A DNA stretch of 63,251 bases, counting the filler, from Asterionella formosa (Eukaryota): assembly GCA_002256025.1 (NCBI GenBank). It is 11 parts of 11 records of this genome, joined end to end, with 100 filler letters (N's around TTAATTAATTAA, not from the genome) between each part and the next. Parts side by side here need not be neighbours in the genome. Positions count along the whole stretch, not along the records: positions 1 to 24,498 come from NKIB01002241.1; 10 more parts are not named here. The stretch is one strand, 5' to 3'. This document shows, piece by piece, positions 1,192-56,387 of this stretch (position 1 is its first letter; each line of letters starts with the position of its first letter). Both the position numbers and the translations under genes were made by a program. A model generated the notes under the pieces. It ran no database searches and was not told the origin of the DNA. It saw only the letters and a program-made list of their open reading frames with translations.

Positions 1192-4100
1192 TCATTCAAC
1201 CTTTCCTGCTTTCCATGGTTTTGCAATCTTCATGCATTTGGAGATTTTTTGGCGAGCTTCTGGTAAAGCACTTGAAATGGTAGAGTCATGTTGCTCGAGT
1301 CTTTTGAACTTTGGTTTTGCGCATAGTGAGGAAACTCCTGTGCTTTCCATAGCAAAGACTCTGCCCTCCTTTGCCAAGTCGAGAAGTCCCGCGAGAACAG
1401 ACTCTAGCGTACACAAGGCTCGTAGCTCCAACCAACTAGGTGAAACATCCTTCAATACGCACTGCTTTATTTCACGCAATACTTCGTGGCTGCCAGTCTC
1501 TTCACTTCCCATTACATAGAAAATTAAATCTTTCATTTCTGTTTTCAGTTTCTCCGGAAGCGTATTGAATACCATTTTGTGGGAAAAGGTAGCGCTGCAC
1601 AGGCCACTGGTATTCTTTGCCAATATCTCCTTCGCGCTTCCCCAGAGTTCCTTCCAATGGTTTGTTCGATTCATGACATCAAAGAAGGAAGGACGTTCTT
1701 TGTCCACCTCATCCTCAGACTTACTAGCTGACCCAGTGGCCATGTATACACTAGAACCGGCATACAAGACAACTGGATGGTGTTCATGTGAATGATTGAA
1801 TGGATGAGACGAGAACAATGACTCCGCTGCACGAATTCTCTCCGAGATCGGACGGTGGAGTTTCTTTCCATTCCCAAAAATAAGATTTCGGTATGATAAC
1901 TTTTTTCCTTTTGCATATCCAGTTATAGGAGCATTGATAGCATCAGTCTTCTCTTCTTCCGCTTTGCAGCATGCCGCAGACGGATCCCAAGTATTCATGT
2001 CGCAGTACCAAATATTAGGAAGGTCATCTGCCAAAATGTCGCGGGGAAGGCGGCGCCATTTCTCGCACTTCTCACACTGTACCCATTCTTCGTTTTCGGG
2101 ACCAGTCGACTTTCCTTCTTTCTTCCCTAGCTGCTCCTTTGGGGGGCGACCACGAGGCCGCTTTCCACTTATCGTTAAATGTACCGCAAAATGATCCACC
2201 TCGTCTCTGGGACGCTTGGCACCATGCTTTAAACGTTTGCTAGATTCAGACATAAAATGAGAACCAAGTTCCGAATCAATGGTAAGAGAATCATGTATTG
2301 AGCGCTCAACACAAACAGCTAACGGGGACGTGATGGCACTTTCATCATCATTTTCACGCTTGTTGCATAGAATTCTCTCGGGCAGTTTCGTCCTTTCGTT
2401 TGGGGGGCGCCCTACTTTCCTTTTCGGCTTTTCTTTCCCGCTACTTGCGTCAACAGATTCGCGTTCTTCGGTATTGGCTCGAATGTTGTTCAAGGATTTG
2501 AAGCGGGTACCTCGAGCCAACTTCCGCTCAGCCTTGCGCTTAGCTCTTGCTACTTCTTTCGGTGTCTGCTCTGCTGCCTGACAGCTGTTACGACGAGCGT
2601 CGAAAATATTCAGTTCGCAATACCACTTCGCTGGAAGGGCATTGACATCTACAGTTGGTGGCAAAATCCGCCATTTCGAGCAAGCATCACACTGCACCCA
2701 GTTATGATCGTATTCGTCTTCACTTGAATCGCAGCCGTCGCATATCTCGCGCAATTTTGTTCTGCAATGCACCTGCTTTGTCCCACCCACTAAAAGATCC
2801 GATTCTTCCGAAACAATATCAAATCCTAGGTCCCTAGTGTCGGACCGCATTTCTTTGCTTTGTTCACTTGATTTCGTTTCTTGTTTCGGGGAAAACAGAG
2901 TTGCCTGTGGCAATATCTCATCTGATTTGTTCGAAACGTGATCCAATTCCAGATCACTAAGATCGGTCCGTTTCATCTCAGTGGACTGGCCTTCATTCAA
3001 AGCCACTTTCTTCTCCTGGTTAGATCCTTTTGTCTCCAACACCAAATCACTAGGTGCTACCAATTCTAGATTCTTGGTATCGATCCGCAACTCCTTGTGG
3101 AGACCTTTGTTCATACTGACATCTTTTCGGCACTGCTGTCTTGCTTCTAGCACCAAGTCGTCGGGTTCTTCAGAAAATGGATCTAATTCCAGATTCATTA
3201 CAGAAGCCCGCTTTTCCAAACGTTGATCGTGCGTCGAGCTCGATTTCTTCTGGCACAGTTGCCTTGCGACTGGCAACAAATCATCCGATTTTCGGGGCAA
3301 TCGATCATTTTGGATCAGTATCGCCTTACGGCGACTGTTTTTCGAGTTCGCAATCTTGCTATCATAGAGCTGTCGCGCCTTAATTGCTGATTCACCCAAC
3401 TCCTTCGAAATGCAATTAGATTTCGGATTTGTTTCCTCGGTCTTCGACTTGCGCATATCTTTGGTCGAATTCGTTGCTATCACCTTCTGGTAAAGTTGCC
3501 GACTCTCGAGCATCAGATTGTCCGCTTCCTTCGACAGGCGATCCAATTCCAAATCCTTAGCAATCTTCCGCAGCTCCTTTCTCTGAGCTTTACTCAAGTT
3601 TGCTTTCTCGTTTCGATACAAATGATTCATTTTCTGAATGGCAATTCGACATTGCACTCGGCAGTTTCGAAGAAGTTGAAAAAGGATTGTATTGTAAATC
3701 GAAACGCATCCGTGATTGAAATCTAAGCCAGTATATCCATCCTGAATCTTTTTTTTCAGATCGGCCACTTGGTTGCGTCCATCAGATATTCCATTTCTTA
3801 GACGTTCCAAGTGTTCCTGGAAGAATACTGGTAGCTCCAAGAGCGACAAACCCCGGGTCATGTCGACAATATTCTCTAGCAAGTGCTTGACATTTCTATT
3901 GTCAGTTTGGACTTGAAGTGAATCAGTGGTAGGACTAGTAGCAGAAGGAGAATATATGTGACCATCGGGTGTTGACCATATGTACGGTGACAAATCTTGG
4001 GTTCCAACAGAGTCATCAAGCTGGCGATTCTCGGGGGTAGTATTAGGACTTGCGGTTGCACTTGTAAACGATGTCACGTCAGGAGAAAGTTGAGTACTTT

Positions 4101-4782
4101 CGTGTTCCCAGCGTTGACTCATGATAGACGGACTAGCATCTTGTTCTGAGTGTTGAACTCTTTCACAACAAGTTTGATCAATAATTTGGTCTAGTAGCAC
4201 GTTGACCGTCTTATCTGAAGGGGAACGAAGATCTGGTCGCATTGTTTCACGTGTTTCTGAACTTGTTTGTTGTTCAATCAAGTTTTGAACGCTTTCATCA
4301 GATGATAGATATGGCGAGGAATCGTCAGCTACTTGTGTTCTACCTGAACGTGATTTAGTAGGTCCTGGTCCTTTCTCATTGGTGTACCTTGTGTGCATGT
4401 CACCACTTGTTTGCAGGTCTACTTCCACCAAATCACAAGAATTACAATCCTTTCTTAAGGATAAGCATCGTTTGCATCGGCCCAGCATGTTGGATCGATC
4501 ACGAAGCTTATTGTCAAAAAAGTCGTGAAATTTCTCGTACTGCGGAGCCAATGCAACATACTCAATGGGAATCTTTGTTTCGCGTCCCCCCAGTGTGTAT
4601 CTGACGTCCAAGCAGCCACCGGAATCTCCCGTGGCATGTACTTTGGTGATCTTTCCAATTCCCCCTGGCTTGTTGATCCCAGGCCAAGTGCGGGCCTTAA
4701 CATTCACCATGCGGCCCACGGAGAAGGAGTTGTTATTGGCGTGGTCATCGCTTCGTTCAATACCTTTTAAAGTTGGCGCCAT
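1192..4782 (-). CDS. Chromatin-associated protein with two CW-type zinc fingers and AT-hook-like motifs
   Basis: 1196-aa intronless ORF. WVQCDACSKWR...KWYCELN...C and WVQCEKCEKWR...IWYCDMN...C match zf-CW. KRKVGRPP and KRPRGRPPK are AT-hook-like. Confidence 0.85.
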   Translation of the reverse strand: MAPTLKGIERSDDHANNNSFSVGRMVNVKARTWPGINKPGGIGKITKVHATGDSGGCLDVRYTLGGRETKIPIEYVALAPQYEKFHDFFDNKLRDRSNMLGRCKRCLSLRKDCNSCDLVEVDLQTSGDMHTRYTNEKGPGPTKSRSGRTQVADDSSPYLSSDESVQNLIEQQTSSETRETMRPDLRSPSDKTVNVLLDQIIDQTCCERVQHSEQDASPSIMSQRWEHESTQLSPDVTSFTSATASPNTTPENRQLDDSVGTQDLSPYIWSTPDGHIYSPSATSPTTDSLQVQTDNRNVKHLLENIVDMTRGLSLLELPVFFQEHLERLRNGISDGRNQVADLKKKIQDGYTGLDFNHGCVSIYNTILFQLLRNCRVQCRIAIQKMNHLYRNEKANLSKAQRKELRKIAKDLELDRLSKEADNLMLESRQLYQKVIATNSTKDMRKSKTEETNPKSNCISKELGESAIKARQLYDSKIANSKNSRRKAILIQNDRLPRKSDDLLPVARQLCQKKSSSTHDQRLEKRASVMNLELDPFSEEPDDLVLEARQQCRKDVSMNKGLHKELRIDTKNLELVAPSDLVLETKGSNQEKKVALNEGQSTEMKRTDLSDLELDHVSNKSDEILPQATLFSPKQETKSSEQSKEMRSDTRDLGFDIVSEESDLLVGGTKQVHCRTKLREICDGCDSSEDEYDHNWVQCDACSKWRILPPTVDVNALPAKWYCELNIFDARRNSCQAAEQTPKEVARAKRKAERKLARGTRFKSLNNIRANTEERESVDASSGKEKPKRKVGRPPNERTKLPERILCNKRENDDESAITSPLAVCVERSIHDSLTIDSELGSHFMSESSKRLKHGAKRPRDEVDHFAVHLTISGKRPRGRPPKEQLGKKEGKSTGPENEEWVQCEKCEKWRRLPRDILADDLPNIWYCDMNTWDPSAACCKAEEEKTDAINAPITGYAKGKKLSYRNLIFGNGKKLHRPISERIRAAESLFSSHPFNHSHEHHPVVLYAGSSVYMATGSASKSEDEVDKERPSFFDVMNRTNHWKELWGSAKEILAKNTSGLCSATFSHKMVFNTLPEKLKTEMKDLIFYVMGSEETGSHEVLREIKQCVLKDVSPSWLELRALCTLESVLAGLLDLAKEGRVFAMESTGVSSLCAKPKFKRLEQHDSTISSALPEARQKISKCMKIAKPWKAGKVE

Positions 4783-5614
4783 GTAGTTGTTCGTGTTGTA
4801 GTCAACCTCTCGAAACGAGCGGTACTTAATAAAGGGTACTCTGGTCTAGTTAGGAGTGGAACATCAAGCAAGGGGAGAGTTGCAAGAACAGAAGGGTGTC
4901 GAACGTATACCGGTGCACCTATAGTCTGTTACAACACAAAATGGCTGATCCGCTTATTGCCACAGAATGTTGCCGATTTGAATTAATAAAATTATGGCGC
5001 GCTATAAGGTCAGCTAAATAAATGTGGCGCGCCAACCTAATCTCTATTACAACCTTCACGTGGGACAGTACATAGCCATGTTATTTGTTGGTCCGACGTA
5101 CGTATGCAAGGCTAATGCAAACGAGGACATCAGTGCAGACGAGCACGATCAAACGTAAACGCTATTACGTCACATCAAAGTCCCGCAAGGAAAGCAGTTG
5201 TGATGGGTGGTTATTATCCAAGTGGCAGGAAGGGGTTAGCATATATTATTTTGGCTCAGATATAGTTATATCTCATTGTTTTGTGGATTTGACAGAATTG
5301 GACCATGGGAAGGCATTCTGAAAAAATACAATTTTTGCACAAACGTGTCTGAAAATGAACTAACAGTCAGCCAGGGAAATTCATGACTTTTCACACAATG
5401 CGAATTTTCTAGTCGCATACAGAACAAGCATGTATTATTGCATGTCTATATTAAGAGGCAAAATGACCTAATCAAGATTCTATAGATTTATGAACCATGA
5501 CAATTAGTGTTTACATGAAACTCAGAACAAAATTATACATTGCTGGCTGAGGTATTGGGCACACTCTGGCATTAAAAAATATTATACCATGTGTATTATA
5601 ACACAAATTGTTGT

Positions 5615-5937
5615 TGAGGTAATGGCTTAGTGGTTTAGCACGTTGTCTTTTATCTGAAGTTGGGTTCGACTCCCACACTCCTTACCGTCCCACACAGTCT
5701 TGCCTGGTGTACAATAAATAGTGGATTGCCCCCCAACACGCAGCTTGTGCTGCCTTCCTAGGCGGTCGGAGTTTTCCCTTATGATACGGCTAAGACGATC
5801 ACCTTTCGCGAAAGGTGGTTGGGGACTCACCTACGCTAACAAAACTAGGGAAACACAGGTCTTGTTGGCAGGTAGCACAATGACAGACTTGCCTAGAAAT
5901 AGGGGAGCACAAATGGGCTATAAAACATACTAACTTT
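5615..5937 (+). mobile_element. tRNA-derived SINE-like element, copy 1
   Basis: A box TGGCTTAGTGG (5623-5633) and B box GGTTCGACTCC (5663-5673). Flanked by a perfect 19-bp direct repeat TTATAACACAAATTGTTGT (5596-5614 and 5938-5956). Body is homologous to 6281-6545. Confidence 0.85.
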
Positions 5938-6190
5938 TTATAACACAAATTGTTGTACCAATATCCCAAAAATTTGGTCAACACAAACACACATTTTTTA
6001 CAATTATAAATAACAGTGTGTTAATATAGAAGTGGATGTCTAGGCATGAATAACTACAAACAATTTCCCATATTATTTCAAGACATGCTTGCCCATGCCG
6101 AAAATGGCTTGCTCTCACCAAAATAGGTATCGGTATGCATAAACATATACATATCAATCATCCTAAAGGGATATTAGATGTTCGTCAATT

Positions 6191-6556
6191 AAGGAATGGC
6201 ATACGGTAGTTGGTTGAGCACGTTGCCTTTGATCTGAGGTTGTGAGTTTCGATTCCCGCAATTTTTTTGAGAAGCAATTCTTGGGTTCGACTCCCACACT
6301 CCTTACCGTCCCGCACGGTCTTGCCTGGTGTGCAAGAAATAGTGGGTTGCCCTCCTACAAGCAGCTTGTGCTGCCTTCCTAGGCGGTCGGAGTTTCCCCT
6401 AACGCTGCGGCTAAGATGATCATCTTTCGTGAAGGGTGGTTGGGGACTCACTTACGCTAACAAAACTAGGGAAGACAGGACTTGTCGGCAGGCAGCACAA
6501 TGAATACTTGCCTTGAAAAAGGGGAGTAGGAATGGGCTATAAAACAAATTATCATT
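6191..6556 (+). mobile_element. tRNA-derived SINE-like element, copy 2
   Basis: tRNA-like head and the same body as copy 1. Flanked by a different 17-bp direct repeat TTAGATGTTC(G/A)TCAATT (6174-6190 and 6557-6573, one mismatch). Confidence 0.85.
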
Positions 6557-9500
6557 TTAGATGTTCATCAATTGTCTGCCACCATTTATGTTGTGATCAT
6601 GTCTTCTTGCTCACAATCCACCTGCAATACAATCTGAGTGGTTGCACTATCAATGTATGTGCAGTGTCTGTACTGGTTGCCGACAATAAAGCAAAATGAA
6701 GAAACTGAGTGCATTTTTTTATTCTATAAATTAGTTTGTTAGCTTTAATATTGCTACATTGTCATCAAGTGCCTCATGAAAGTGTCTTGCCACATCACTT
6801 GGACTGGCTGCATAATTGCGCCTGACAGGCCCCCATAAGTTTCATGTCCTTGCTCCTTGACCGTGGTATATGCTTTTCGCAAGTGTGTAATGGCTTCTCC
6901 ATGCATACATTCCCTCCTTGTACTTGACTCCCCAATAGCACCATTTAGGATATACTCTAACACAGAGTTTGAAATGTCGGGTTTGTCTCCAAGTTTCAAT
7001 AAATTCTTTCTCTCAACATCATCATGGTCCACAATGATTTGTTTTGCTGCCTCAAATTTCAGTGTCTCGTATTGTCCATTACCTTTGTTACCAGTGCTTG
7101 ATTTTCCAAATTTTGAGTCGAATCCGCATGGTGTCCAATAGTCGTGCACGATACATTTCCTTGTGTCGTGTCTTGCATAATGGCTGTCCTGAACCGTATG
7201 AATCTCCCAGTACTGTGTTCCCTAGTGCCATGGCTTGTTTGAAGTGTTTCTTCGCCTCATGGCATCATCGTCATCATCAGAAGATGAGAGTCAAGCCGAC
7301 ATGGTCAGTGACCAACAATTGTGAAATCATGGAACTCATGTATATAGTGCACAAGAGGCGGCAAATCACAAAAGAGGACGCATCGCTATGAAACTGAAAC
7401 TTTTATAAATTAGTGTTAAATTTACAGCTGATTTCAGATAAATAATCTAAAATATCTCGATTATGAGAGCACAACGATGTTATAATGAATCAAATCGCCA
7501 AATAATTTGTGTTTTAATACACACATGATATGATAATCCCATTTTTTACATTTTGAGATGTTGCGACCTCGCCAAGATTTCTATTGCTCAAGTTTCCTCA
7601 TCAATTGGTGATTTATAAAGAATATAGAAATAATTATCTCATAGAAGTTATCAAGCAAGCTAGCAGTCACAGCAGACTCAACAATGTCTCGTTTTATTAT
7701 TAGTATAATTTGAACTGGTACCAGTAGTCCTACATAAGGATATGAAACCATGCAAAGGTTGAGACGCACAACATACTGGTACCAGCCAGTAATTGCCTGG
7801 TATATCTACTCTAGCTACTAAACTACTGTCCATAGAGCTGTACAGACCATCTTCACATAGTATCGTAAGTACAACATGCATGCGTTGAGCATTGTCTAGT
7901 AGGTATGACATTATATTTCAGGCAGCAAGTACCAGTATATCATGAAACCAACCCTGATAAACTGTCAATTTCAATGAAAATACAAAAATTGTAAACACGA
8001 ATTCCCTGGACTAGCTCATTGTGCATGTCGGACACTTTCGTGCAAAAGTGTTATGGACCAAGGCATTCCCGCTGCCAGGGCCAACATTCGCTATGTGGAT
8101 GTGGTTGCTTTCCACGAGCCCCTCTACAAGCTCCTCTCTGGCAATACACACCAACAACCAGCCAGCTCCACTCAAGGAACAACTAGATACTATACTAGCT
8201 ATCTTTACCACCAACAAGATCGCCACGGCAGCATGTCTAAGGTTAGGTCAGAACAGTGCGAACTACTATTTTGAGTCCTCAAAGTCATTACCCATCTGTG
8301 TATATTACCCCGTTTTTGGACTAAAATTAGAAAAGTCCTCAGCCAACCCCAATTAACACCCTTTTAATAGAGGTCGACTAATGCATGCAAGTACGAGATA
8401 AATGAATCATTTTAACAATTGGAAGTATATATCTTATGATATCGAACTTTTTAAGTCGTTCATAGTGGTCTTATTTTATGGTAAACAGTTTGCAAATAAT
8501 ACCTGGTTTTCCGTATTTTCTCCGATTTTTTGTGTCAACTGACGTCGATTTTTGTGCGAACACATAAACTACGCTTCCATAACCACAACTTCATCCTCGT
8601 CATCCTCTTCAGCTGAGGCTGCTGGTGACAGTATGGGACTGGTGCATCGCCACGTCCCATTGTATCAACATACCTAGTAAGCATTAGTTGTTTTGTTGCA
8701 TGTCATGCATGGCTGGTGCCATTATTTTGTACCTCAACACCATTTTTTTTGTTTGCGCCACCGTCCATTTTTGTGGCTGTTTGTTAAGCGCTCTGATCGC
8801 TTGCACCTTGTTCAATGTTGCTGTTTATTCCATAACTTTCTTATTCGCTTTCTCACTCGCCTCTGCCCTATTTTTCCTCCTAGTCATATCGTCCAGTGCT
8901 TCCGTTCTTCAGTTTAAAGCATTCAGCCACCACATGAAGTCCTGCCATATACCTTTTATTTTGCGCGATCGCCAATAGCGCCGACTGGCGAGCCATCTGA
9001 TCAAGGTTGATGCCAACCACTTGCTTGTGGTTCTGGAGGACGTTTCATGGTCTCAATGGCAGCACGTTTTTCGTTTGTATTCCTCCCCCCCCCCCCTTTC
9101 TCACCGGTAAGTTGTGTTTGTTGTGTCTCATGCTGTTCCGGTCTATTGGCTAGATTATTGTTTCTCACACTACTGTTTTTGTCTACATTACATGCAACTG
9201 GTGTCAAAGTAGAGGATACAGTAGTGGTGGCTCTGGTTCCAAAGGTAAGTGTACTGCTAGTTTCAATTTGTTCTGCTGGGGAACAATCCAATGGCACTAT
9301 AGAATTTAAACCCCCTACTAGTATTAGATCTTTGTTGTCATTATTTAATTTCTTCAAAGGGTAGTACTTCACCATGTCTTTTGTTTAACATGTCTTTTTG
9401 TTTTCACCGTGTCTTTTGTTAGCCACGTTATTGTGCCAACTTTGTCTGCTACTAATCTAGCAAGCAATAGCACCATTTGGTAAAAGAGCTCCTCCATTGT

Positions 9501-12231: not shown

Positions 12232-12445
12232 TGGGAGCAAACAGGGAGGTCTGATAATCGAAATATTTAGCTTATTTTGTAAGTACAAACCGTGTTTTAC
12301 CGGTACTACCGGTAGTACCAGGTATAGGATATAGACGAGGACAGAGGTGCACACTAAAAAAACGAAAGTGTACTCCGACCTGGGGGCATCGTATGTACTG
12401 AAAGTGGTCAGTTTGAACACCCTTACTAAACGATCATTTGGCGCG

Positions 12446-14656
12446 ATGCCGCCCCTTCCTCCAAATCGTCCCAACACCAAAAGAACCTTGGAAGATTCTG
12501 ATACAAGCAGCCAAGCACCTTCAATCGTAGGCTCGTCGTCGCAGCAGGGATCCATTCGGACTTCAACAATATCCATTCGATCTTCCAAGCATGGACGACT
12601 ACGACGCAAGGAACGAAACATTGGTAGGCGACAACTTCAAGCTGCCATGAAGCACGGAGTGGCGCAGCTGGTAGGAGTTGACCGCGTGAAGTACACTCAT
12701 GATGGACTTGTCTTTGTCATTGGCCAGGATGGCACAGAAGTTACATCATACTATCAGTCCTTGGATATGCCATTTCGTAGAATTCAGGAATTGGAACATA
12801 ACGCACATGACGAAGCAAAGGCACAGATGCATAATAACGCAATTGTATATTGCAAGTCGCACACTGTCTTGCTCGTGGATACAAGCGGATCGATGCGGAA
12901 TTCCGATGTCCACGGGTCACGAACTCGACTCTCGGCGGTGTGGCTTGCTATTGCCGAAGATTTTATTCGCCACCGCATCGAATCCGACGTTTCCTCTCTC
13001 CAAGATGCCATTTCCATTGTTCTCATGGGAGAGCAAGCTACCTTAATACTCCACAAAGTGCCAACAGACTGGATCACGTACAATTATATATTGAAGATTC
13101 ACAAAAAAGGAGTTTTTATTCCTGGAGGGCATGGTTGCTACGGACCTGCTCTCCGAATGGCTCATGATATCTTGATGGAATATGAGTCTGCAGATTGTCA
13201 ACTCATGTTGGTCGTGTTATCCGATGGTAGACCGTCAGATGGTTCCATTAAAAATGGTCAAGATCGGGTTAAGCCCAAGGAAAAGATCAATTCGCTTGTC
13301 GAAAATATGTCTAGCTGTCTTGGTAAACGATTCAACCTTCGAACGATAGGCATGGGCTCAGCAGATCAATTTGAGACCCTTCACGACATGACTGAGGTGG
13401 CACAAAATTTTGGATCGTTTGGAGCATTTCAGCTACCAAGTCTTTCTACCAGTGGTCTGGGTGCTGCCATGTCAAGTATTTCAACGTCCTTGACGGAAAG
13501 TTTATCGTCATTCAATGATGGTAACAGTAAGTTTCGACAGATGCGGATTGTCCGTCGGGAAAACAAAAAAATGATCCCATTATTGACAGAAGAAGTGAAT
13601 GAACAGGATTTTTTTATTTTTGGGAGAAAGGACGTGACGCGAATGGAACTTGTAAACGACATTTTTGAAGACAGGCCCTTGCATCATCCTGCAGCGCAAG
13701 GTGTGGCTATTCGAAAGCTTGCGTTTGGGGAAGGAGCTGAACGTCTTGCCTACCAATTCTTTGAGGTTGCCGCTGATGGAAAAACTGTTGTGGGTGAGCC
13801 GCTGGTGGCTAAGGACAGCAGATATTCTTTTAAGCAGGAAGACGGAGCAGATCCTGTCGTTCCAATGAATAAGTTTTGTAGACGATTCTGTAGGATTCAG
13901 CGTCAAGCTGCAAAAACAGAGAAAGCCTTCAACGCCAAGCTTGACACGATTCCGAATTTGGTTAGTGACACGGCACGTGTGAGTTTCTTGCCTTGCTCTG
14001 TCTATTATTTGAACCATCCAACTGAAGGACTTAAGCCATATATTGTGGAGCGAAAAATAACGGAAGACTTTGAGAAATGGAACAGCAACAATGGCGTAAG
14101 TAGAATCCAAGTAATGCAGTCCAAAAAATTGCTTTGTCCTGACGTGTCTAACACTTTGATCCATCTTTAGTGGGCTCAATGTGCTAAAAGGATAACCAGA
14201 AATGTCAGTCTGCCCCAAGTGATTCCACTCCAAATCATTAAAGAAGAAGAAGGTGATGATGATGACGATGATTACAACGATGAACCGAGTAGGGAACCAA
14301 ACGCCGTGAGTTTCCGACACGACGAGGTCGCACAGGCCTTTTCACACTTTAGTTACATTCATGGTGGACGAAAGACGTTGATCTGTGATCTGCAAGGTGC
14401 TTTCAATAGAGTGGGCAAGGTATTGGTGTTGACCGATCCTGTCATTCATTTCTTTGATCCCTCCAAGGACCACAAACGAGGTGTCTATGGACGAACTGAC
14501 CGCGGTGAGAAAGGAATTGCAGATTTCTTACGAAATCATGAATGCAATGGTCTATGCGACTTGATGTGCAAAGGCTTCTTTACGGCCACTAAGCTACCCC
14601 CTGCAAAGCGACAGAAGACAAATGGCGAGGCGGATGGTAGTTTTGGGGTTAACTAA
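12446..14656 (+). CDS. DUF4258-like + vWA + alpha-kinase (eEF2K/MHCK family) fusion protein
   Basis: Exons 12446-14095 and 14171-14656 (GTAAG...TTTAG intron, frame preserved), ~711 aa. vWA MIDAS DTSGSM and LSDG. Alpha-kinase motifs FGEGAERLAY, VAK, KWNSNNG, QAFSHFSY, ICDLQG, LTDPVIH, YGRTDRGEKG, HECNGLC. Confidence 0.9.
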
Positions 14657-24450: not shown

Positions 24451-24542
24451 TTCTTCCAGAGAAACCGGCCCACAACAGAGTCCTTGTTATCTGGAAGCNN
24501 NNNNNNNNNNNNNNNNNNNNNNNNNNNNNNNNNNNNNNNNNN

Positions 24543-24554
24543 TTAATTAATTAA
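24543..24554. other. Artificial contig-joining linker TTAATTAATTAA within N runs (first of ten)
   Basis: Identical N-flanked palindrome with stops in all six frames, also at 49080, 50661, 52241, 53821, 55401, 56981, 58560, 60138 and 61717. Confidence 0.95.
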
Positions 24555-24970
24555 NNNNNNNNNNNNNNNNNNNNNNNNNNNNNNNNNNNNNNNNNNNNCT
24601 AAATGTTCCTGACGTTGAAAAGAGGGAATGAGTTTCTATGTAGCAGCATAAAGAAAATGACATTTTCGGTGGGATGCCTTTTCAAATTGATTTAATTATG
24701 GCCCCAAGTGGCTTCTCTCCAAAAAATAGAAAAGTGTTTTCAGCAAATTGAGCCAAAACGAGATGAGATCTACCGGTAGGCAATCAAAATATACAAGGGC
24801 ATCTACAAAGACTACGGGTATTGTAGCTGTATTGTTATGTGCATCCACATAACCCTAACATTTCATTCATTATACAATGCTACCAAGATTGGTAGTGTAT
24901 ACAAATACTAAAATTCTAGACTGCCGTGCATAAGGCGATAAGGACCCTGGTAGTCTAGCACTACTGCACC

Positions 24971-38739: not shown

Positions 38740-40323
38740 ACAATCTGGGGTATTATTTGGTTGATGTATTCTACCAAATTGCCATATATTTGTCAAGACA
38801 ATTTCAGAGACACCACAAGCATGGTCCAAAGCAGAGTTATCTCTCGATGTGTCAGGAGGCACAGCACAAGGACATTGAGTGAGCATTTGGAGTTCAACAG
38901 GCCAGCTGGAGGATCTTTGCACTTCCATGTAAACTTGGATCAGTGGCCACTATGAACAGTGTAGTCTAATCATTGCATGCATGATTTTGCATAACATGAT
39001 CATTGAGGACAAATGACTNNNNNNNNNNNNNNNNNNNNNNNNNNNNNNNNNNNNNNNNNNNNNNNNNNNNNNNNNNNNNNNNNNNNNNNNNNNNNNNNNN
39101 NNNNNNNNNNNNNNNNNNNNNNNNNNNNNNNNNNNNNNNNNNNNNNNNNNNNNNNNNNNNNNNNNNNNNNNNNNNNNNNNNNNNNNNNNNNNNNNNNNNN
39201 NNNNNNNNNNNNNNNNNNNNNNNNNNNNNNNNNNNNNNNNNNNNNNNNNNNNNNNNNNNNNNNNNNNNNNNNNNNNNNNNNNNNNNNNNNNNNNNNNNNN
39301 NNNNNNNNNNAATGACTAGTGGATTGAAAATGAGGACAAATAGTAGATAATAATTTGATTTGAGATTAACATTTTGAAGTGCAAAATACAAGTTCTAGGT
39401 TGGCGCTAATGAAATGAATAGTGTAATGTAATGTCTCTAAAATCAAACTGTTTAATACTCTTGTTGTCCAGTCTCTAGAATCGAAACATCATCAGTAGAT
39501 GGTGAACAAGAAGTTGAAGTATCAATTTCAACTGAACTGCCTGACTCCAAAGAACTTGTCTTGGTTTTTTGCGTGATGGTTTTGAACTATCCTCCATCTC
39601 CTCCATAGCTACTTGAGCCTTCATAGCAAACTACCTTGTGGCTTCCTCTGAATTACTATTAAGCGAAAAAATCTTCGACAAAAATTCATCACGTTGCATC
39701 TTCGCCTTTCTTTCCAACATCTGCACATGTTTTTGCTCAATGACAAGCTGAACATTTGCGAGTAGCTTGCTGTTCTTCGCTGCTTTTGTCCCCATGGGAC
39801 GCACCCTAAGTAACTCAGGACCCTTCGTTGTGATTTGCTGCTGATCTCAGATACCCAGGCCTGAGAGAGTGCTTCGTCCTCTTCCTTCTCCCACATGACA
39901 CCGGAACCCATCCTGATGATGATTATTATTTTATGATGTTGTCCCAATATGTATATGCGCCAACATCACATTGGCCTATAGTTCAACAAGAAGAGGCTAT
40001 GATACTAGTGAATGTACTGTAATTCTGCATTCAACTTTTAAACCATAAGCATTAGAGTGCTGGCACGAGCCATAATCTAAACCAATAGAAATGCTTCTTT
40101 TATTTGGCTATGCATGGTCGGAGTCTAATCGACCAAATACCTGATATTTGGTCAATTAGGGACTCATCCTCGACCGAGGCCAAAGCATATTTGGTTGTGG
40201 TCGTTGTGGTGGCTAAAATATTTTTGCTTTTCTGACCAACATGATGCATCATGACGTGCATTGACCTGTAACTTCAATTGGCTTGCTTGGTTTCGTTTGG
40301 TCGATGCGGTGGCGATGCTCTAA
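38740..40323 (+). mobile_element. Degraded PIF/Harbinger DNA transposon
   Basis: Transposase remnants YYLVD, QEAQHKDIE*AFGV, LHNMIIED (+ strand). Myb/SANT-like WEKEEDEALSQAW on the - strand (~39850-39897). Terminus GGTGGCGATGCTC followed by TAA at 40308-40323. Confidence 0.75.
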
Positions 40324-41640: not shown

Positions 41641-42598
41641 CATACTTCAACATAAGTTTGATGCTCTTCTGGTGTTAGAGGATCCTTTCTCATATGTTTG
41701 TTGAGAATAGGTTTAGATAAAACACCGTTTTTGTACGTGACTTTTTGTTCTTCGCGGAGTTTCCGTCAACTCCCAGTGTACAACCGGTACATACCGTTAC
41801 ATCACAATCACACACAAATGCATTCACCAGCCCTCAACACTTACCGGTATGTACCGGTATCGGTTCACACTTTCTTGGGATTGTTGTATGGGGGCTGACG
41901 CTATGTGGGTCGACGTTGGCGCGCCCGATTATGCATGCTCAAGTTACTTAAGCAACATCAGGGGATAGGGATAGGTTTATGACAAGAATCATCTGCAGAA
42001 TAAATCGCATGCGATATTTTTGTAGACAGTTACGTATATCACAAAACAATGAATCCTTAAAGGGGTANNNNNNNNNNNNNNNNNNNNNNNNNNNNNNNNN
42101 NNNNNNNNNNNNNNNNNNNNNNNNNNNNNNNNNNNNNNNNNNNNNNNNNNNNNNNNNNNNNNNNNNNNNNNNNNNNNNNNNNNNNNNNNNNNNNNNNNNN
42201 NNNNNNNNNNNNNNNNNNNNNNNNNNNNNNNNNNNNNNNNNNNNNNNNNNNNNNNNNNNNNNNNNNNNNNNNNNNNNNNNNNNNNNNNNNNNNNNNNNNN
42301 NNNNNNNNNNNNNNNNNNNNNNNNNNNNNNNNNNNNNNNNNNNNNNNNNNNNNNNNNNNNNNNNNNNNNNNNNNNNNNNNNNNNNNNNNNNNNNNNNNNN
42401 NNNNNNNNNNNNNNNNNNNNNNNNNNNNNNNNNNNNNNNNNNNNNNNNNNNNNNNNNNNNNNNNNNNNNNNNNNNNNNNNNNNNNNNNNNNNNNNNNNNN
42501 NNNNNNNNNNNNNNNNNNNNNNNNNNNNNNNNNGTGTATCATACTTTATGTACCTGCACAAAGAGAAAGTCGGGGCGCAAAATGCAACATAAATCACA

Positions 42599-47747: not shown

Positions 47748-48722
47748 TGTTGAAAGGTCTCGTACTCCTTCCCGTCTGACGGAATCCTCTTACGTAAAAC
47801 TTACCTGTTATACCACTAGTATTGTTATCTTCTTTCTGCTGCTAGCCTTCGTGCTAGTTTTCGCTATTGACCTTACTCTGTCAATTCTCACTGTTTCTTA
47901 ATTATAAGATTAAACTAAAACTAAGTTTCAATCCCATTCATCACACTTCGAGAACCTGTTCTTCGTGTTCCCTTTTCGTTGATGTAAACCTTCTTCTGAT
48001 TGATCTAAGACATCAATCTCGTTAGCAAGCTTCTTGACATGGGAACGCACCATTTGACTCATTGGACTGTAGTCGAGTCCACAGTCCTTGTGACTCATTA
48101 TAGCCATTGATGCTATATTCTTGACATCCTCCTCGTTACCATGTTCAAGAAGTTCTAAAATTGTACCACTCAACACGGGTCCAGATAACCTTGTAAAAAT
48201 CTGCTCTTTGACATTCTTCGTCAAAATGTCTGCTGGATTGTTTTCTGATCTTAGAAAAACAATATGCAACTCACCCTCATCTATCATGTTCTTGACATGA
48301 TGAAACTTAATATCAATGTGTTTTTGTAGTGGACCTTGTTCCGTGATATTAAAATCCTCCTTGATCATATTTTTCATGAAGTCCACTGCATTCCTGGTAC
48401 CACAAATAATTCCATCATCCACATAGTTTGCCAACAGCCCTTCAATTTGTCCATCGTTGTTACGGTAGATAAACAACATTGGATCTATTTCGCTTTTCGT
48501 TATACCTGTCTTGCTGGTGATGCATTTCGCAAATGTCTTGGACCAGCATCTTGGAGCTTGTACACTTCCATACATAGCCTTAATTAATTTGCAGATATGT
48601 ATATTCTGATCGATCCCTGTCAATCCTTCTGGGGGCTCAATATAAATGTCTTCGTCGACTTCAGCATTTAAAAACGCTGCTTCAACATCGATTGCTTCCG
48701 CTATCCAACCATAGTACAAAGT
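47748..48722 (-). mobile_element. Ty1/Copia remnant with internally deleted RT/RNase H and a 3' LTR
   Basis: IDVEAAFLN, KLIKAMYG.VQAPR.W, YVDD, HIDIKFH, NPADILTKN. PPT GAGGAGGA, then TGTCAAG (48126) ... TCAACA (47748) on the - strand. Confidence 0.85.
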
Positions 48723-48892
48723 TGTTGAAATATATGGCGCTACTCTAGCGCGCTCCAGTACTGCCCTGGAATGACCGGTCAAGATCTTTCTCACGCCGCT
48801 CGTCTGCAGCTTCTTCTGCTATATAAATCCTGTCTATTTCCGTTTAGACATTCCTCAGACTACCTAGTCTTCGGACACCTGTCGACATCAAC
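48723..48892 (+). mobile_element. Possible second LTR abutting the Copia RT
   Basis: Starts TGTTGA, ends TCAACA, contains TATATAAA. Located where RT homology stops. No TSD seen. Confidence 0.45.
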
Positions 48893-49155
48893 AGCCTAAC
48901 AGACACAATCTGACACCCTCCCCTGTTGATGCTCGACATACCACATCATCCTAATGTGTATGCTCGACACATCCTTTCCTACAGGAATTCTCATAGTGCC
49001 TTCTCGTTTTCTACGTCTCTGTTTTTCTTTTTCTCNNNNNNNNNNNNNNNNNNNNNNNNNNNNNNNNNNNNNNNNNNNNTTAATTAATTAANNNNNNNNN
49101 NNNNNNNNNNNNNNNNNNNNNNNNNNNNNNNNNNNTGATCAGCCAATCAAGTAAG

Positions 49156-50616
49156 GTGAATGATAGAAGAAATAAATCTGGGAGAGAGCGGCAGCATGGT
49201 ATCCCCTTCAAGTCAGCACAGTCCATGGAATCTATGAGCTATTCCGATTTGAAGGCTGGAAGTACCAAGTCACGTCGCCAGGCATTGGTTAAAGAGCTTC
49301 GACTGTCGATTAAACATTACGGTCGATATGATATTCGGTGCGCTAACGTTACCGCAGCACTTGGAGAGATTTTCGATGAAATGCAAGAATTCAGCCAGGC
49401 CTTGAAGTTGCAGAGAGAAGTTGTATCTATCTACAGTACCAAACTTGGTGACCACCACGTCACAACTATCAGCTCCAAGGTACGACTGGGAAAGCTTCTA
49501 GAAAAAACTGGAGACATCGACACTGCAATTGAAACATACTACCATGTATTGAACATGCGTAGATCATTAGCAGGAGACAAGGACTCGTCTGTTCCCGATG
49601 CTTTAACCTACATTTCCAGGGCCTTAAAGAATAAAGGGCGCGCTGAACAAGCAATAAAGGAACTCAAGAGAGCACTGAAGATGTATCGAGAGTCGTTAGG
49701 TGACTGTCACCCTCGAGTGACGGCAACAGTAGATGAAATCTCAGCTTTGTACATAATCGTTGGAGATTTTGCAAAGGCCGCCGCCATTCTCGAGGAAGTT
49801 GTCAAATTGAAGGCTGCTACAATGGGCGTCAACAACACCCATGTAGCCCAGACATTGCTGCAGCTAGCAACAGCTTACGAATGTAAAGGGGACTACCTCC
49901 AGGGTTTGAAATCCTTGAAAAAGGCTTACGCTGTCTTTGCTAGTGTCAAGGGTGATACCAGCGAAGAAACTACGAACGCCTTGAAACGAATCGCAATAAA
50001 CTTCAAGATCAGTGGTGACACAGAGAGATCTGTTGCTGCTTATCTTGGCGTTCTCAAAGGAAGAAAACATTCTTTGGGCGGCAATAACCCTCTTGTGGCC
50101 AAAACATATTTAGACCTTGGCATGGCCTTACGAGATCATTCTCAACCCGAAAAGGCAATGAAGTGCCTAAGGCAGGCTCTCGCCATATATGTCGGTGAAG
50201 GTAAGGAGGTGCATGACGTTGGAATGATAGCCGAAGTGATGCATGAAATGGCTGTCACTCAGAAGTCGAAGGGTGAATTGACCGAAGCAAGCAGAATTTT
50301 CAAGCAGGAGCTCGCCATTCGTAAAAAGATGGGTGAAAGAGAGAAACCAAAGATTGCCAAGACTCTGCATCATATTGGAAACACAGAGCTTGAGCGTCGC
50401 AATCATACTCAAGCTCTAAACTTTTTCATGGAAGCCCTTTCTATCTACGAGAACGTCGAGGAAGAACTCTCTATCAACTTTGCCGAAACTCTCAGCAGCA
50501 CTGGTCTCGTCTTCGAAGCAACACGTCATTTTGATCGTGCTACAGAAGCATTCAAGGAGGCTCGCTCCATCTTCCAAAGTCATGGAATCGATACTACCAA
50601 TGCCACGGCGATCTTG
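49156..50616 (+). CDS. TPR-repeat protein (kinesin light chain/nephrocystin-3-like), partial
   Basis: Open frame across a small contig with repeated ~42-aa TPR units (LGDHHVTT, LGDCHPRV, MGVNNTHVA, LGGNNPLVA). Truncated by linkers. Confidence 0.85.
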
Positions 50617-50888
50617 NNNNNNNNNNNNNNNNNNNNNNNNNNNNNNNNNNNNNNNNNNNNTTAATTAATTAANNNNNNNNNNNNNNNNNNNNNNNNNNNN
50701 NNNNNNNNNNNNNNNNCCTTAGTTTCAAAACTAGGCGACATTGCATCTCGATCTTCTGGGAGTACATCCTAAGTATATAGTTCCAAAAACAAACTGGCAG
50801 CTCATACTTCCCTCCTTCACCTGCTGTTGGTGTCCCAGCCATCAGTCACACCTTCCTCTCCTTACCGCTGCTGCATACCGAAATACCG

Positions 50889-50948
50889 AGTACCTGGTAC
50901 CAGGTACCAGGTACCAGGTACCAGGTACCAATGGTACCAGGTACCAGG
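50889..50948. repeat. (GGTACCA)n tandem repeat
   Basis: Run of GGTACCA units. Similar runs at ~22181-22212 and ~45236-45262. Confidence 0.9.
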
Positions 50949-50977
50949 TGAAGTATCTAACTAGAAGTAGTAGTATT

Positions 50978-52196
50978 TGTTGAATATATGAGCTTATTAA
51001 TTAATCCTTATGTATAACTCATTTCCTGAACTGACATCAAAAGTATAGAATGGGTGTTAGTCGAGTTCTCTCATTATTGAATTCCGATATATTTGACATA
51101 ACCCCAACTCTATATATATCTGTATCGATGTGCAGGATTGCTCACTCTCCCACACTTGAGGGAAAACCTTTTACCTATGAAAAGGTTTGATACGACGAAT
51201 ATTAATTCGTTCGGTAATATGCATAGTGCGTTGAAAAGTAACTGTACCATTGGCATGTACTTGAATAATAGTATAAGGACCTCGTCCACGATCATCCAAA
51301 GTAGTAGGATTATCCAATAATATTAAAATCTCGTCACCCACTTTGTAATCATAAGATCGACGACGGAAATTTGCACGACGTAAACGTTCGTCAATTATCA
51401 CCTGTCGACGTTGATGTATTAATTGTAAATCTGTAATCAAAGGAATATTTAATATCATATCACGTTGGAAAACCCATGCTCCTGGTGAAATACGTAATAT
51501 ACTATGAATAGTAGCTCGAGCTGCATATGACGCAGCTGCAAAACATGTATCCACAATATTTTGGGCTTGAAATTCATTGATTGGAGGATGAGCCTTTAAC
51601 ATAACTCGTAGACTATTGCTGATAGATTGATGGAAACGTTCACAGATAGCATTTGCTTGTGGATTCTTTACTGTGGTAGTCACATCTTTGATTCCATTCA
51701 ATACTAACATGTGTAAGAAAGGAGCACCAGTAAATTCACCTCCATTGTCATGTATACAACGTTCTGGACGGGGATATCTGGCTAACCAATCATTTTCAAA
51801 TTTCATTGCAATATATTCTGATGTTTTATTGATGATACGTGAAATTTCTGCTAAATTGGTGACTGTGTCAATACAAGTTAGAGCACGAAATTCAATCGTT
51901 TGAGCAGCCACTGTTATCTTCCATGGACCAATTAGATCTACTGCGACTTCTGACCATGGTAATAATAATGCATTCCTGGGTGGAAGTTCACCAAAACCAG
52001 TACCAGGTAATTTTGTACGTTGACATGCTTCACATACTCTTACAATATGTTCCACTCTTGTTTTTAATATAGGGTGATAAAAATGTGTAGCAATTGTAGC
52101 ATTTAATCTTGTCATACCCACATGAGCTAACATCTGATGATACCAATTAATAATAGGATCCAATAATGATGTAGGAATAGCAATACGCCAAGTATC
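50978..52196 (-). mobile_element. Ty3/Gypsy retrotransposon 3' end: integrase, PPT and short LTR
   Basis: HHCC zinc motif (YHQMLAHVG...CEAC), DDE core (VDLIGP, IHDNGGEF, NAICER), GPY/F motif (GPYTI). Purine-rich tract, then TGAG (51144) ... CAACA (50978). Confidence 0.92.
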
Positions 52197-52520
52197 NNNN
52201 NNNNNNNNNNNNNNNNNNNNNNNNNNNNNNNNNNNNNNNNTTAATTAATTAANNNNNNNNNNNNNNNNNNNNNNNNNNNNNNNNNNNNNNNNNNNNGGTA
52301 CCAGGTACCAAGTAGTTCAATGACAAGACAGCAACATCGCTCAAATTGCGGGAAAAACTAACTAATTCCCAAATGGGAATCATAATATTTCATTTATATA
52401 ACTAGTCTAATAGAAATATTTTACTTTTTTTATAATGGTTTTGTCATCCTACGTCACAGTAGATGGGTGGTTGACAGCATTTAGGATTTCCCAAAAACCG
52501 ATAGCATCGTTTTTTCGTCA

Positions 52521-52680
52521 GTTGACCAAAACCAAAACCAATCCAAAAAAAAGTTTTTGGGTTTTGGTTTGGGTCAACGGTTAGCAACGGCCTTAGGCAT
52601 GGTAAAAAACCGAAGTTCCTTTCTGCAGTTTCTGACCAGATCCTATATACTGACGATATATTGAGTGAACATACACCCCT
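52521..52680 (+). repeat. Dispersed repeat with hairpin, related to the window start
   Basis: AAAAAACCGAAGTTCCTTTCTGCAGTTTCT...CCAGATCCTATAT..TGACGATATA is shared with ~50-135. Inverted repeat at 52521-52578. Confidence 0.75.
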
Positions 52681-53277
52681 AAAATATATATATATGTTGA
52701 ATTGGGTTCGAATAGTTTAATTAAATGCTAAAAATTTATTTACAGAAACAGTCTATATGTTCACGTCTATGTAACTAATAACGAATGCATTTTTCGAGTA
52801 AGCCTATCCTAACGTAGAATGATCGTATGTTAGCAACGTAATCATTCATAAGCGAACAGCAAAGACGCAAGTGGTGCCGGCGATTTGATGCAATTATTTT
52901 CAACCAAAGGGAGGAGTAAGTAGAACGGCAATGATGACTAAATATTTGCTGCTCCTGGCTGCTATCATTTTCTTTTTTCACGCACTGCAGGAATAATTCT
53001 TAAACGCTATTCATGGTCTAATATTTTATCAACAACACTATATCCGTCGTGACGCGGGTAAATAAATCCCTGTAAAGAACATATTTTCATTTATTCTACA
53101 TATGCGAATATGACAATGAATGCCATATTGTTTTCCGGACTCACATGGCATGTGCTATGATAAGAATAGTGTATCACTACTACCGGTATCATCCTCAAAT
53201 CATTAACAACACCATAAAAAGAATACAAAACTTCCACAAAGTTGATTTCATTGCTACTTCTTTCAGTCGATATCAAC

Positions 53278-53776
53278 ATGAAGCTTGTGGGGATGTTTCT
53301 TTTCGTTCTCGTTGCTGCAACTGTTGTCGTTGATGTGTCGGCTTCGAAGGCCTCAGCGAAGTGTGAGAAAAAGCCTGGATTCTATTATGGGCCCGACAGC
53401 AAAGGCAAAATGAAATGTATCAAGGCATGCGATGCAGTGAAGAATGAGGTAGTTTTGTTTGGACAAACATTTCCTTGCAATTCTACTACATCGTTGGTTT
53501 TATTCAATGCTGCATCAGGAGTCATTCCACAATCCATTATTGGACTCACAAAGTTGACTACCTTGGACCTCTACAACAATAAAATCACGGGGACAATTCC
53601 AAGTGCTTTGGGTCGATTGACGAAGTTAAATTATTTGGACCTCAGCAAGAATGAGCTCACGGGGAAGATTCCCAGTGCCTTGGGTCGATTGACAAAGTTG
53701 AGTTTTTTGCACCTCGGTTCCAATGCACTTAATGGGATCATTCCCAGTGCATTGGGTGGATTGACTTTGATAGATT
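53278..53776 (+). CDS. Secreted or membrane LRR protein, partial
   Basis: Signal peptide MKLVGMFLFVLVAATVVV. 24-aa plant-type LRRs (LxxLDLxxNxxTGxIPSALGRL). Truncated by a linker. Confidence 0.88.
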
Positions 53777-53876
53777 NNNNNNNNNNNNNNNNNNNNNNNN
53801 NNNNNNNNNNNNNNNNNNNNTTAATTAATTAANNNNNNNNNNNNNNNNNNNNNNNNNNNNNNNNNNNNNNNNNNNN

Positions 53877-55970: not shown

Positions 55971-56387
55971 ATGCTAAACGATGCTCAACGAGGACCAACA
56001 GTGCTTTATTTCCAATCTGGCAGGCTATTGTAATCTCTACAATCAACAATGACTTAATTATGTGTCTACAACATCAACTACTACTACTACGTGTGCTGAA
56101 TTCTACAGTGTGAATCTTCCTCTTGCATGTGTTTTTCTTTGCCAGTTCAGATCAAAGTGATATGTCGGAGCGGAAAAAATAATAAGTGTATCGGAATTGG
56201 CGACTCTTTCGTTCATTATATGGTGAAAGCAGCATAATATTGCGGCAGAGCAGCATAATTTCGCTTTTAAACTGTTGCGATGGCTAGTTGGTCAACATAT
56301 ATTGTCACGAACACACATAATTATTGGTGTGATCACATAATTATTCGATAAGTGAAATAAATTTTTGTTTAACCCGAATAAATTAGG

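What the first reader, a model, noticed from the sequence alone, without database searches (positions are those of the whole stretch)
6305..6540. SINE body folds into a nested multi-stem RNA with a compensatory base change between copies
Seen in copy 2: TTGTGCTGCCT (6366-6376) pairs with AGGCAGCACAA (6490-6500), TTCCTAG with CTAGGGAA, and GAGTTTCCCCTAAC with GTTGGGGACTC. There are also hairpins ACCGT/ACGGT, TCTTGC/GCAAGA and ATCATCTT/AGGGTGGT. The 3' GAAA-loop hairpin is CCTA-GAAA-TAGG in copy 1 (5892-5903) and CCTT-GAAA-AAGG in copy 2 (6511-6522), a double change that keeps the pairing. Several other differences keep G-U pairs. Inference: the element carries a structured RNA under selection, such as an RT-recognition domain, a captured ncRNA or an unrecognised ribozyme.
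Basis: partly seen in the sequence, partly recalled or inferred. Interest (0 to 1): 0.7.

Follow-up and report, generated by a model that had tools for sequence, protein, structure and literature searches.

The report
Abundant diatom SINE, only local hairpins
The two repeats are decayed copies of a very abundant short retrotransposon (SINE) of a freshwater diatom; the large nested RNA fold is not a family feature, and only a few short hairpins, one near the 3' end with a covarying closing pair, look real.

Summary
They sit in two same-strand copies of a SINE with A and B boxes and 16-19 bp target-site duplications. The host is an intron-poor diatom. The family is very abundant: 18,616 contig pieces in one DNA run.

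- Body folding energies match shuffles: z -1.64, -0.73, -1.24.
- MFE folds differ between copies.
- RNAalifold's covariation term is a penalty, and 1 of 75 pairs is compensatory.
- The perfect 11-bp stem is private to copy 2. About 89% of family depth has C at 6372, which breaks it, and no copy shows a compensating change.

What survives is a set of local hairpins: a central 18-nt palindrome and a 3' GNRA-loop hairpin. Its closing pair is A-U, U-A or U-G in different copies.

My best reading is an ordinary SINE whose 3' hairpin is a recognition stem for a partner LINE. No partner LINE could be looked for. A T7 run between head and body is unexplained.

The parts
5615..5937 (+). SINE copy 1. 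It lacks 41 nt of the head, including the T-run, that a copy at the same insertion site in locus L001 still has.
5596..5614 (.). Target-site duplication of copy 1, 5' copy. It is 19 nt and identical to 5938-5956.
   Evidence: family D5, 100% identity.
5938..5956 (.). Target-site duplication of copy 1, 3' copy.
   Evidence: family D5.
6191..6557 (+). SINE copy 2. The 3' end falls at 6553 or 6557, depending on whether the duplication is read as 20 or 16 nt.
   Evidence: (family D6).
6175..6190 (.). Target-site duplication of copy 2, 5' copy. It is 16 nt with 1 mismatch, or 20 nt at 90% if read from 6171.
   Evidence: family D6.
6558..6573 (.). Target-site duplication of copy 2, 3' copy.
   Evidence: family D6.
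5623..5633 (+). A-box-like motif of copy 1, an exact match to TRGCNNAGTGG.
   Evidence: The motif consensus is recalled, not taken from a tool.
5663..5673 (+). B-box-like motif of copy 1, an exact match to GGTTCGANNCC. It also gives a sub-threshold T-arm match.
6246..6256 (+). First B-box-like motif of copy 2, with 1 mismatch.
6262..6268 (+). Internal run of 7 T between the tRNA-like head and the body. It looks like a Pol III terminator.
   Evidence: L001 also has T7. L002 has a run interrupted by G.
6284..6294 (+). Second B-box-like motif of copy 2, an exact match.
6366..6376 (+). 5' arm of the 11-bp long-range stem. The stem is perfect only in copy 2, and most family members have C at 6372.
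6490..6500 (+). 3' arm of the 11-bp long-range stem.
6370..6387 (+). Local hairpin that competes with the long-range stem. It is the strongest 30-nt window in all three copies, and the family-consensus C at 6372 pairs within it.
6418..6441 (+). Central hairpin of copy 2, weakened to G-U pairs. The homologue in copy 1 is 5796-5821 and contains a perfect 18-nt palindrome.
5796..5821 (+). Central hairpin of copy 1, 11 bp, -13.3 kcal/mol.
5888..5907 (+). 3' GAAA-loop hairpin of copy 1, with an A-U closing pair.
6505..6528 (+). 3' GAAA-loop hairpin of copy 2, with a U-A closing pair.

Best explanation
Both repeats are old, mutated insertions of one very abundant SINE family of a freshwater diatom. 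The element has a head with A and B boxes, about 250 nt of non-coding body and a short tail ending in a T-run.

Inferred life cycle: Pol III transcribes the element from the head. The reverse transcriptase of a partner LINE binds its 3' part. Target-primed reverse transcription inserts a copy and leaves 16-19 bp target-site duplications.

The large nested fold seen in copy 2 is not a property of the family. Part of it comes from mutations private to that copy. The family-level RNA features are a few local hairpins. The one most likely to matter is the GNRA-loop hairpin about 30 nt from the 3' end, read here as the stem-loop that a stringent-type LINE protein recognises.

Shown: repeat copies, duplications, A and B boxes, abundance, hairpins kept in three copies. 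Inferred: Pol III transcription, the LINE partner, recognition of the hairpin.
For: - Structure of the element. The two copies are 87.6% identical over the body. Flanking direct repeats are 19 nt exact and 16-20 nt. Copy 1 has exact A and B box matches 40 nt apart, with the A box starting at the element's 9th base. All six frames hold stops.
- Abundance. At 80% likeness or more, 18,616 contig pieces were laid in DNA run X1 and 2,971 in X3.
- Host. It is a diatom by best named relatives of the cysteine desulfurase ORF, 83-87% identity. A chlorophyll-binding ORF is also present.
- The 11-bp stem is not a family feature.
  - 6372 is C in 903,508.6 of 1,015,819.4 depth units in X1, with similar shares in X3 and X20, and in L002 and L001.
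  - L001 has the SINE at the same insertion site as copy 1, with flanks about 90% identical. So copy 1's T arose after insertion.
  - In 11 copies where both sides can be read (3 as DNA, 8 from translated copies), none has the compensating G at the 6494 position.
- Local hairpins fold in all three DNA-level copies. The 3' hairpin gives -8.2, -10.8 and -8.9 kcal/mol (z -2.7, -4.9, -5.8). The central hairpin gives -13.3, -7.7 and -13.3.
- The closing pair of the 3' hairpin is A-U, U-A and U-G in the three copies.
- Stringent-type LINEs recognise a 3' stem-loop shared with their SINEs (abstracts of PMC4176376 and PMC1636434).
Against: - No partner LINE could be sought. No genome is held. The window has no LINE-type RT or endonuclease ORF among the 29 ORFs scanned. 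The 'longer' protein search found only 5 more SINE-derived ORFs and no LINE ORF2.
- The T7 run at 6262-6268, also in L001 and inferred in most translated copies, would be expected to stop Pol III before the body.
- The head is not recognised as a tRNA. ARAGORN finds none. Rfam gives only T-arm fragments, with tRNA-Sec at E = 1.1.
- After correcting for window choice, the hairpins are only moderately unusual. The best and second-best 30-nt windows against shuffles score 40/200 and 44/200 in copy 2, 18/200 and 0/200 in copy 1, and 7/200 and 4/200 in L002.
- Three translated copies imply a U-U mismatch at the closing pair, so the pair is not strictly kept.
- The RNA runs show SINE pieces but no transcript ends. 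In X17, 92% of what was laid runs on into unlike sequence.
Confidence: 0.6

Rival explanations
1. The whole SINE body folds into one nested multi-stem RNA kept by selection, as an RT-recognition domain, a captured ncRNA or a ribozyme.
For: - Copy 2's MFE has the nested stems.
- The 11-nt perfect inverted repeat is rare in shuffles of copy 2 (3/500).
- A profile of the family hits its own reverse strand at 5880-5745 with E = 0.0017, so the body is an imperfect palindrome.
- The copy 1 core folds at z -2.94.
- Two pairs change on both sides.
Against: - Body z-scores are -1.64, -0.73 and -1.24. The consensus-like L002 core gives z -0.81.
- The three copies give three different MFE folds.
- RNAalifold's covariation term is +1.24, a penalty.
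- About 89% of family depth has the stem-breaking C at 6372, with no compensation in 0 of 11 readable copies.
- That C pairs instead in a competing local hairpin.
- Variants lacking the 5' arms exist: P0144, and loose ends in X20 at 5787.
- No Rfam family comes near its threshold.
Confidence: 0.08
2. Nothing in the body is under structural selection. All hairpins, the 3' one included, are incidental palindromes inherited from whatever sequence gave rise to the body. The double change is two linked subfamily substitutions that pair by luck.
For:
- After correction for window choice, copy 2's hairpins are unremarkable (40/200 and 44/200).
- Mismatch intermediates at the closing pair occur in 3 of 17 readable translated copies.
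- Non-synonymous changes in the central hairpin break pairs about as often as they keep them. This is my hand count and assumes minimal codon changes.
Against: - The 3' hairpin folds in all three DNA-level copies with three different closing pairs. L002 also turns the internal G-G mismatch into G-U.
- Both Watson-Crick orientations of the closing pair recur in several independent copies. The tally inferred plus the 3 DNA copies is A-U 8, U-A 7, U-G 2 and U-U 3 of 20.
- In L002 and copy 1 the second-best window is rare in shuffles (4/200 and 0/200).
Confidence: 0.27
3. The inverted repeats act at the DNA level. They could be a remnant of a foldback or MITE-like element, or a dimeric protein-binding site, rather than an RNA structure.
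For: - The central element is a perfect 18-nt palindrome including its centre.
- The minus strand folds about as well as the plus strand: z -1.97 against -1.64 for copy 2, and -2.06, -1.87 and -0.88 for the cores.
Against: - The insertions have 16-19 bp duplications, and no terminal inverted repeats showed up in the inverted-repeat scan.
- On the plus strand the central stem extends through G-U pairs, which would be A-C mismatches on the other strand.
- Copy 2's changes in that stem are all wobble-preserving on the plus strand.
Confidence: 0.05

Closest known systems
tRNA-type (Pol III, A/B box) SINEs mobilised by stringent-type LINEs, for example the eel UnaSINE1/UnaL2 and zebrafish ZfL2 systems
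   Same: A short non-coding element with an internal A and B box head. It has variable-length target-site duplications, a very high copy number, no poly(A) tail and a stem-loop close to the 3' end. In those systems the LINE ORF2 protein binds the 3' stem-loop, reading the stem generally and the loop specifically (abstract of PMC4176376). A stem with a mismatch is functionally needed (abstract of PMC1636434).
   Different: No partner LINE is known here, so the defining shared tail is untested. The host is a diatom, not a vertebrate. The head gives no tRNA match by covariance model. A T7 run separates head and body.
SINE superfamilies defined by conserved central domains, such as those described for molluscs in PMC4758252
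   Same: A modular head, central body and tail. The middle block (translated as KGGWGLTYANKTREAQ in one frame) is the best conserved part among the 25 translated copies.
   Different: I had no library of SINE core domains, so similarity to any named core was not tested. I saw only the search-listing abstract of that paper.
SINE bodies derived from LINE internal or 3' sequence (PMC5786205)
   Same: It would explain a body with hairpins that serves only to be recognised by the LINE machinery.
   Different: Untested here. I saw only the search-listing abstract. The protein search with the open frame of the body found no LINE ORF2.

Membership tests
SINE (tRNA-type, Pol III) | Short (under about 600 bp), non-coding, interspersed repeat at high copy number | tested here: met
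   Lengths are 323 and about 363 nt, with stops in all six frames. At 80% likeness or more, 18,616 contig pieces were laid in X1 and 2,971 in X3. Unrelated flanks are seen in the window's two copies and L002.
SINE (tRNA-type, Pol III) | Flanking target-site duplications of variable length, as left by LINE-type target-primed reverse transcription | tested here: met
   19 nt exact for copy 1 and 16-20 nt for copy 2. Not resolved for L002.
SINE (tRNA-type, Pol III) | Internal Pol III promoter with an A box and a B box at tRNA-like spacing | tested here: met
   Copy 1 has exact matches at 5623-5633 and 5663-5673. Across the window these motifs are no more frequent than chance, so position and spacing carry the argument. 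The consensus motifs are recalled.
SINE (tRNA-type, Pol III) | Head demonstrably derived from a tRNA | tested here: inconclusive
   ARAGORN finds 0 genes. Rfam gives only T-arm fragments (E = 0.036-0.093) and tRNA-Sec at E = 1.1, 19.2 bits against a gathering score of 47.
SINE (tRNA-type, Pol III) | No Pol III terminator inside the transcribed unit | tested here: not met
   A T7 run lies at 6262-6268 in copy 2 and in L001. L002 has an interrupted run. The run is deleted in copy 1.
Stringent-type LINE/SINE 3' recognition stem-loop | Stable hairpin within the last 60 nt or so of the element, kept across copies | tested here: met
   The hairpin folds in 3 of 3 DNA-level copies. The closing pair is A-U, U-A or U-G.
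Stringent-type LINE/SINE 3' recognition stem-loop | The same tail and hairpin at the 3' end of an autonomous LINE in the same genome | not testable with these tools
   No genome is held. The window has no LINE ORF.
Stringent-type LINE/SINE 3' recognition stem-loop | Statistically supported covariation in the stem | tested here: inconclusive
   One covarying pair in 3 DNA copies (73/500 shuffles do as well). The tallies from translated copies are not phylogenetically independent.
Known structured RNA or ribozyme family (Rfam 15) | Covariance-model match at or near the gathering score | tested here: not met
   Best matches over 5400-6800 are 12.8-15.8 bits against gathering scores of 35.6-40, E = 1.7-7.2. 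Nothing better turned up in L001 or L002.
Named SINE core-domain superfamilies | Sequence similarity of the central body to a named core domain | not tested
Five sequence strings from the element gave 0 papers.

The most novel reading that the evidence does not exclude
The source genes of this diatom SINE carry a selected RNA domain beyond a simple LINE tail. Its parts are the local hairpin at 6370-6387, the central palindromic hairpin and the 3' GNRA hairpin. Together they could act as an RNP-assembly or self-processing module. This would also explain how a body lying behind a T7 Pol III terminator is still made and copied.
Probability: 0.07. Interest if true: 0.6.

Novelty: new member of a known kind. 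Interest (0 to 1): 0.2.

Why it matters
This is mostly housekeeping. The finding is an ordinary SINE, and the striking nested fold owes part of its perfection to mutations private to one copy.

It still has some value. Four paper searches listed no paper describing a diatom SINE family. This one is abundant enough to matter for diatom genome annotation. It also seeds 25 spurious hypothetical proteins in public protein sets.

If a partner LINE with the same 3' hairpin exists, it would define a SINE-LINE pair in diatoms. The T7 run between head and body raises a small open question about how the element is transcribed.

Tried and rejected
- Getting many copies for a proper covariation test mostly failed.
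  - The window holds only the two copies, by blastn and by nhmmer with a 3-copy profile.
  - No genome is held.
  - The single metagenome scan gave 2 loci, of which L001 is cut by the contig end.
  - Two genome-contig scans and five viral-contig scans gave nothing.
  - Earlier findings of this scan gave nothing.
- Read laying gave family-wide variant shares, but only 40 of 191 variant rows were shown, with no linked sequences. The absence of a row for 6494 is therefore weak evidence on its own.
- As a workaround I searched the protein collection with the 90-aa open frame of L002. I read 25 translated SINE copies. Nucleotides inferred from these assume minimal codon changes and are blind to synonymous sites.
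- RNA runs: SINE pieces occur in metatranscriptome contigs X17 and X20. Contigs cannot show strand, ends or level, and DNA carry-over is possible. I draw no conclusion on expression.
- Rejected: a captured known ncRNA or ribozyme.
- Rejected: a solo LTR or DNA transposon, because of the 16-19 bp duplications and the lack of terminal inverted repeats.
- Rejected: coding potential of the 90-aa frame. Copies carry stops and frameshifts and have no Pfam domain.

Full report
**What is there.**

The region holds two same-strand copies of one repeat, at 5615-5937 and 6191-6553/6557. They are 87.6% identical over the body. Each is flanked by a direct repeat of target DNA: 19 nt exact for copy 1, and 16-20 nt with 1-2 mismatches for copy 2.

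Copy 1 starts with exact matches to the Pol III A-box and B-box consensus, 40 nt apart (the consensus motifs are recalled). All six frames hold stops. The element ends in a short T-run directly before the duplication. These are the features of a Pol III-type SINE.

ARAGORN finds no tRNA. Rfam sees only T-arm fragments. So "tRNA-derived" rests on the promoter boxes alone.

**Host and abundance.**

The window has long unbroken ORFs. Examples are a nucleoside hydrolase, a mitochondrial carrier, a cysteine desulfurase and a chlorophyll-binding protein. The best named relatives of the cysteine desulfurase ORF are diatoms, at 83-87% identity. The stretch occurs in runs labelled freshwater, lake water or algae metagenome.

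Laid at 80% likeness or more, the 1.2-kb stretch collected 18,616 contig pieces in DNA run X1 and 2,971 in X3. Depth over the SINE was one to two orders of magnitude above the flanks. The family is therefore very abundant.

I could fetch only two further DNA-level copies. L002 is full length and closest to the family majority. L001 has the SINE at the same insertion site as copy 1, with flanks about 90% identical, but it is cut by its contig end.

**The observation.**

Copy 2's MFE contains the nested stems.

Against shuffles the picture is weak.
- Whole-body z-scores are -1.64, -0.73 and -1.24. The minus strand folds as well, z -1.97.
- The 144-nt core gives z -1.30, -2.94 and -0.81, with three different MFE structures.
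- The 11-nt perfect inverted repeat is unusual in copy 2 (3/500 shuffles). The longest in copy 1 and L002 is 7 and 8 nt, which is ordinary (359/500 and 139/500).

**Why the 11-bp stem is not a family feature.**

- Position 6372 is C in about 89% of family depth: 903,508.6 of 1,015,819.4 in X1, with similar shares in X3 and X20.
- L002 and L001 also have C.
- Because L001 shares copy 1's insertion site and has C, copy 1's T arose after insertion.
- With C, the stem has a C-A mismatch in its middle, next to a G-U.
- Both sides are readable in 11 copies: 3 as DNA and 8 from translated copies, where Arg, Cys or His marks the 5' side and Ser or Asn the 3' side. None has the compensating G.
- The consensus C pairs instead in a local hairpin at 6370-6387. 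That hairpin is the strongest 30-nt window in all three copies.
- Variants lacking the 5' arms also exist.

**Covariation.**

On the three-copy alignment RNAalifold gives a positive covariation term of +1.24, a penalty. One of 75 pairs is compensatory.

- 92.5% of cells pair, against 91.6% in shuffles (73/500).
- 2 pairs change on both sides.
- 5 pairs are kept by a one-sided change.
- 12 pairs hold 16 unpaired cells.

Three sequences give little power, and a proper test needs the genome.

**What survives.**

Two local hairpins fold in all three DNA-level copies.
- The central one contains a perfect 18-nt palindrome in copy 1 and L002. Its self-reverse-complement score is reached in at most 1 of 500 shuffles. 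Energies are -13.3 kcal/mol in copy 1 and L002 and -7.7 in copy 2, where changes leave G-U pairs.
- The 3' hairpin has a GAAA loop, four pairs, a 1x1 mismatch and three to five more pairs. Energies are -8.2, -10.8 and -8.9 kcal/mol.
- Its loop-closing pair is A-U, U-A and U-G in the three copies. L002 turns the G-G mismatch into G-U.

I also read the closing pair from 17 translated copies, assuming minimal codon changes. Third codon positions are ambiguous in this reading. The closing pair is a standard pair in 14 and U-U in 3. With the DNA copies the tally is A-U 8, U-A 7, U-G 2 and U-U 3 of 20. The inferred loops are mostly of the GNRA type.

Both orientations thus recur in several copies, which points to a switch in source genes. 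The copies are not independent events, however, and the mismatch form was also copied.

After correcting for window choice the hairpins are only moderately unusual. The best and second-best 30-nt windows score 40/200 and 44/200 in copy 2, 18/200 and 0/200 in copy 1, and 7/200 and 4/200 in L002.

**Mechanism.**

My best reading is an ordinary SINE. Pol III transcribes it from the head, and a LINE reverse transcriptase copies it by target-primed reverse transcription. The 3' hairpin is the stem-loop that a stringent-type LINE protein binds, as shown for zebrafish and eel LINEs (abstracts of PMC4176376 and PMC1636434).

Only the anatomy is shown here. The LINE partner could not be sought.
- No genome is held.
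- No LINE ORF is among the 29 window ORFs scanned.
- The open frame of the body matches no LINE ORF2.

One feature argues against simple Pol III transcription. A run of seven T lies at 6262-6268, between a first tRNA-like unit with its own B-box-like motif and the rest of the element. L001 also has it, and most translated copies imply it. Copy 1 lost this run in a 41-nt deletion between the two B-box-like repeats.

**Comparison and novelty.**

The element works like known Pol III-type SINEs with stringent LINE partners. Membership in that class is met for size, copy number, duplications and promoter boxes. It is inconclusive for tRNA origin, not met for "no internal terminator", and untestable for the shared LINE tail.

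No Rfam family fits. Four paper searches listed no description of a diatom SINE family, and the element's sequence strings occur in no held paper. Subscription journals and repeat databases were not searched.

I rate it a new member of a known kind, of low interest.

Noticed in passing
window 6262-6268; L001 and L002 at the homologous place: A run of seven T sits between the first tRNA-like unit and the body. It is directly followed by a second B-box-like motif at 6284-6294. It looks like a Pol III terminator inside the element, and most copies I could read keep it.
   Followed up: partly
window 5657/5658 against L001: Copy 1 lacks 41 nt, including the T-run, that L001 still has. L001 carries the SINE at the same insertion site, with flanks about 90% identical. 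The deletion lies between the two B-box-like repeats and happened after insertion. The shared insertion means it is old, or part of a duplicated segment.
   Followed up: partly
L001, contig end (locus positions 1-27): The contig ends inside the SINE in letters unrelated to the element. They look like a sequencing-library adapter (a recalled resemblance), so this is an assembly artefact rather than a variant.
   Followed up: no
proteins P0121-P0145: Twenty-five predicted 'hypothetical proteins' of 49-205 aa in public metagenome protein sets are translations of copies of this SINE. None has a Pfam domain.
   Followed up: partly
window 5500-6700 in RNA runs X17 and X20: Metatranscriptome contigs contain SINE pieces. 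In X17, 92% of what was laid runs on into unlike sequence, as expected for copies embedded in longer transcripts. No transcript ends can be read from contigs.
   Followed up: no
window 47928-48818, 51171-52244, 59401-60141, 62123-63163: Other mobile-element remnants occur in the window: a Copia-type RT, an integrase zinc-binding domain, a Mutator-like transposase and a Harbinger-type DDE transposase. There is no LINE-type ORF.
   Followed up: no
window 55457-55954: A tandem array of a 194-nt unit, 2.6 copies at 95% matches.
   Followed up: no
window 49036-61772, also 24499-24598, 39019-39310 and 42068-42533: Runs of N total 1,638 bases. From 49036 onward they come as pairs of 44-nt blocks at a regular spacing of about 1,580 nt. 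This looks like masking rather than assembly gaps.
   Followed up: no
window 1192-4845 (-) and 12335-14170 (+): A 1,217-aa open frame has two CW-type zinc fingers. A 611-aa frame joins a von Willebrand A domain to an alpha-kinase domain. Both are unbroken by introns.
   Followed up: no
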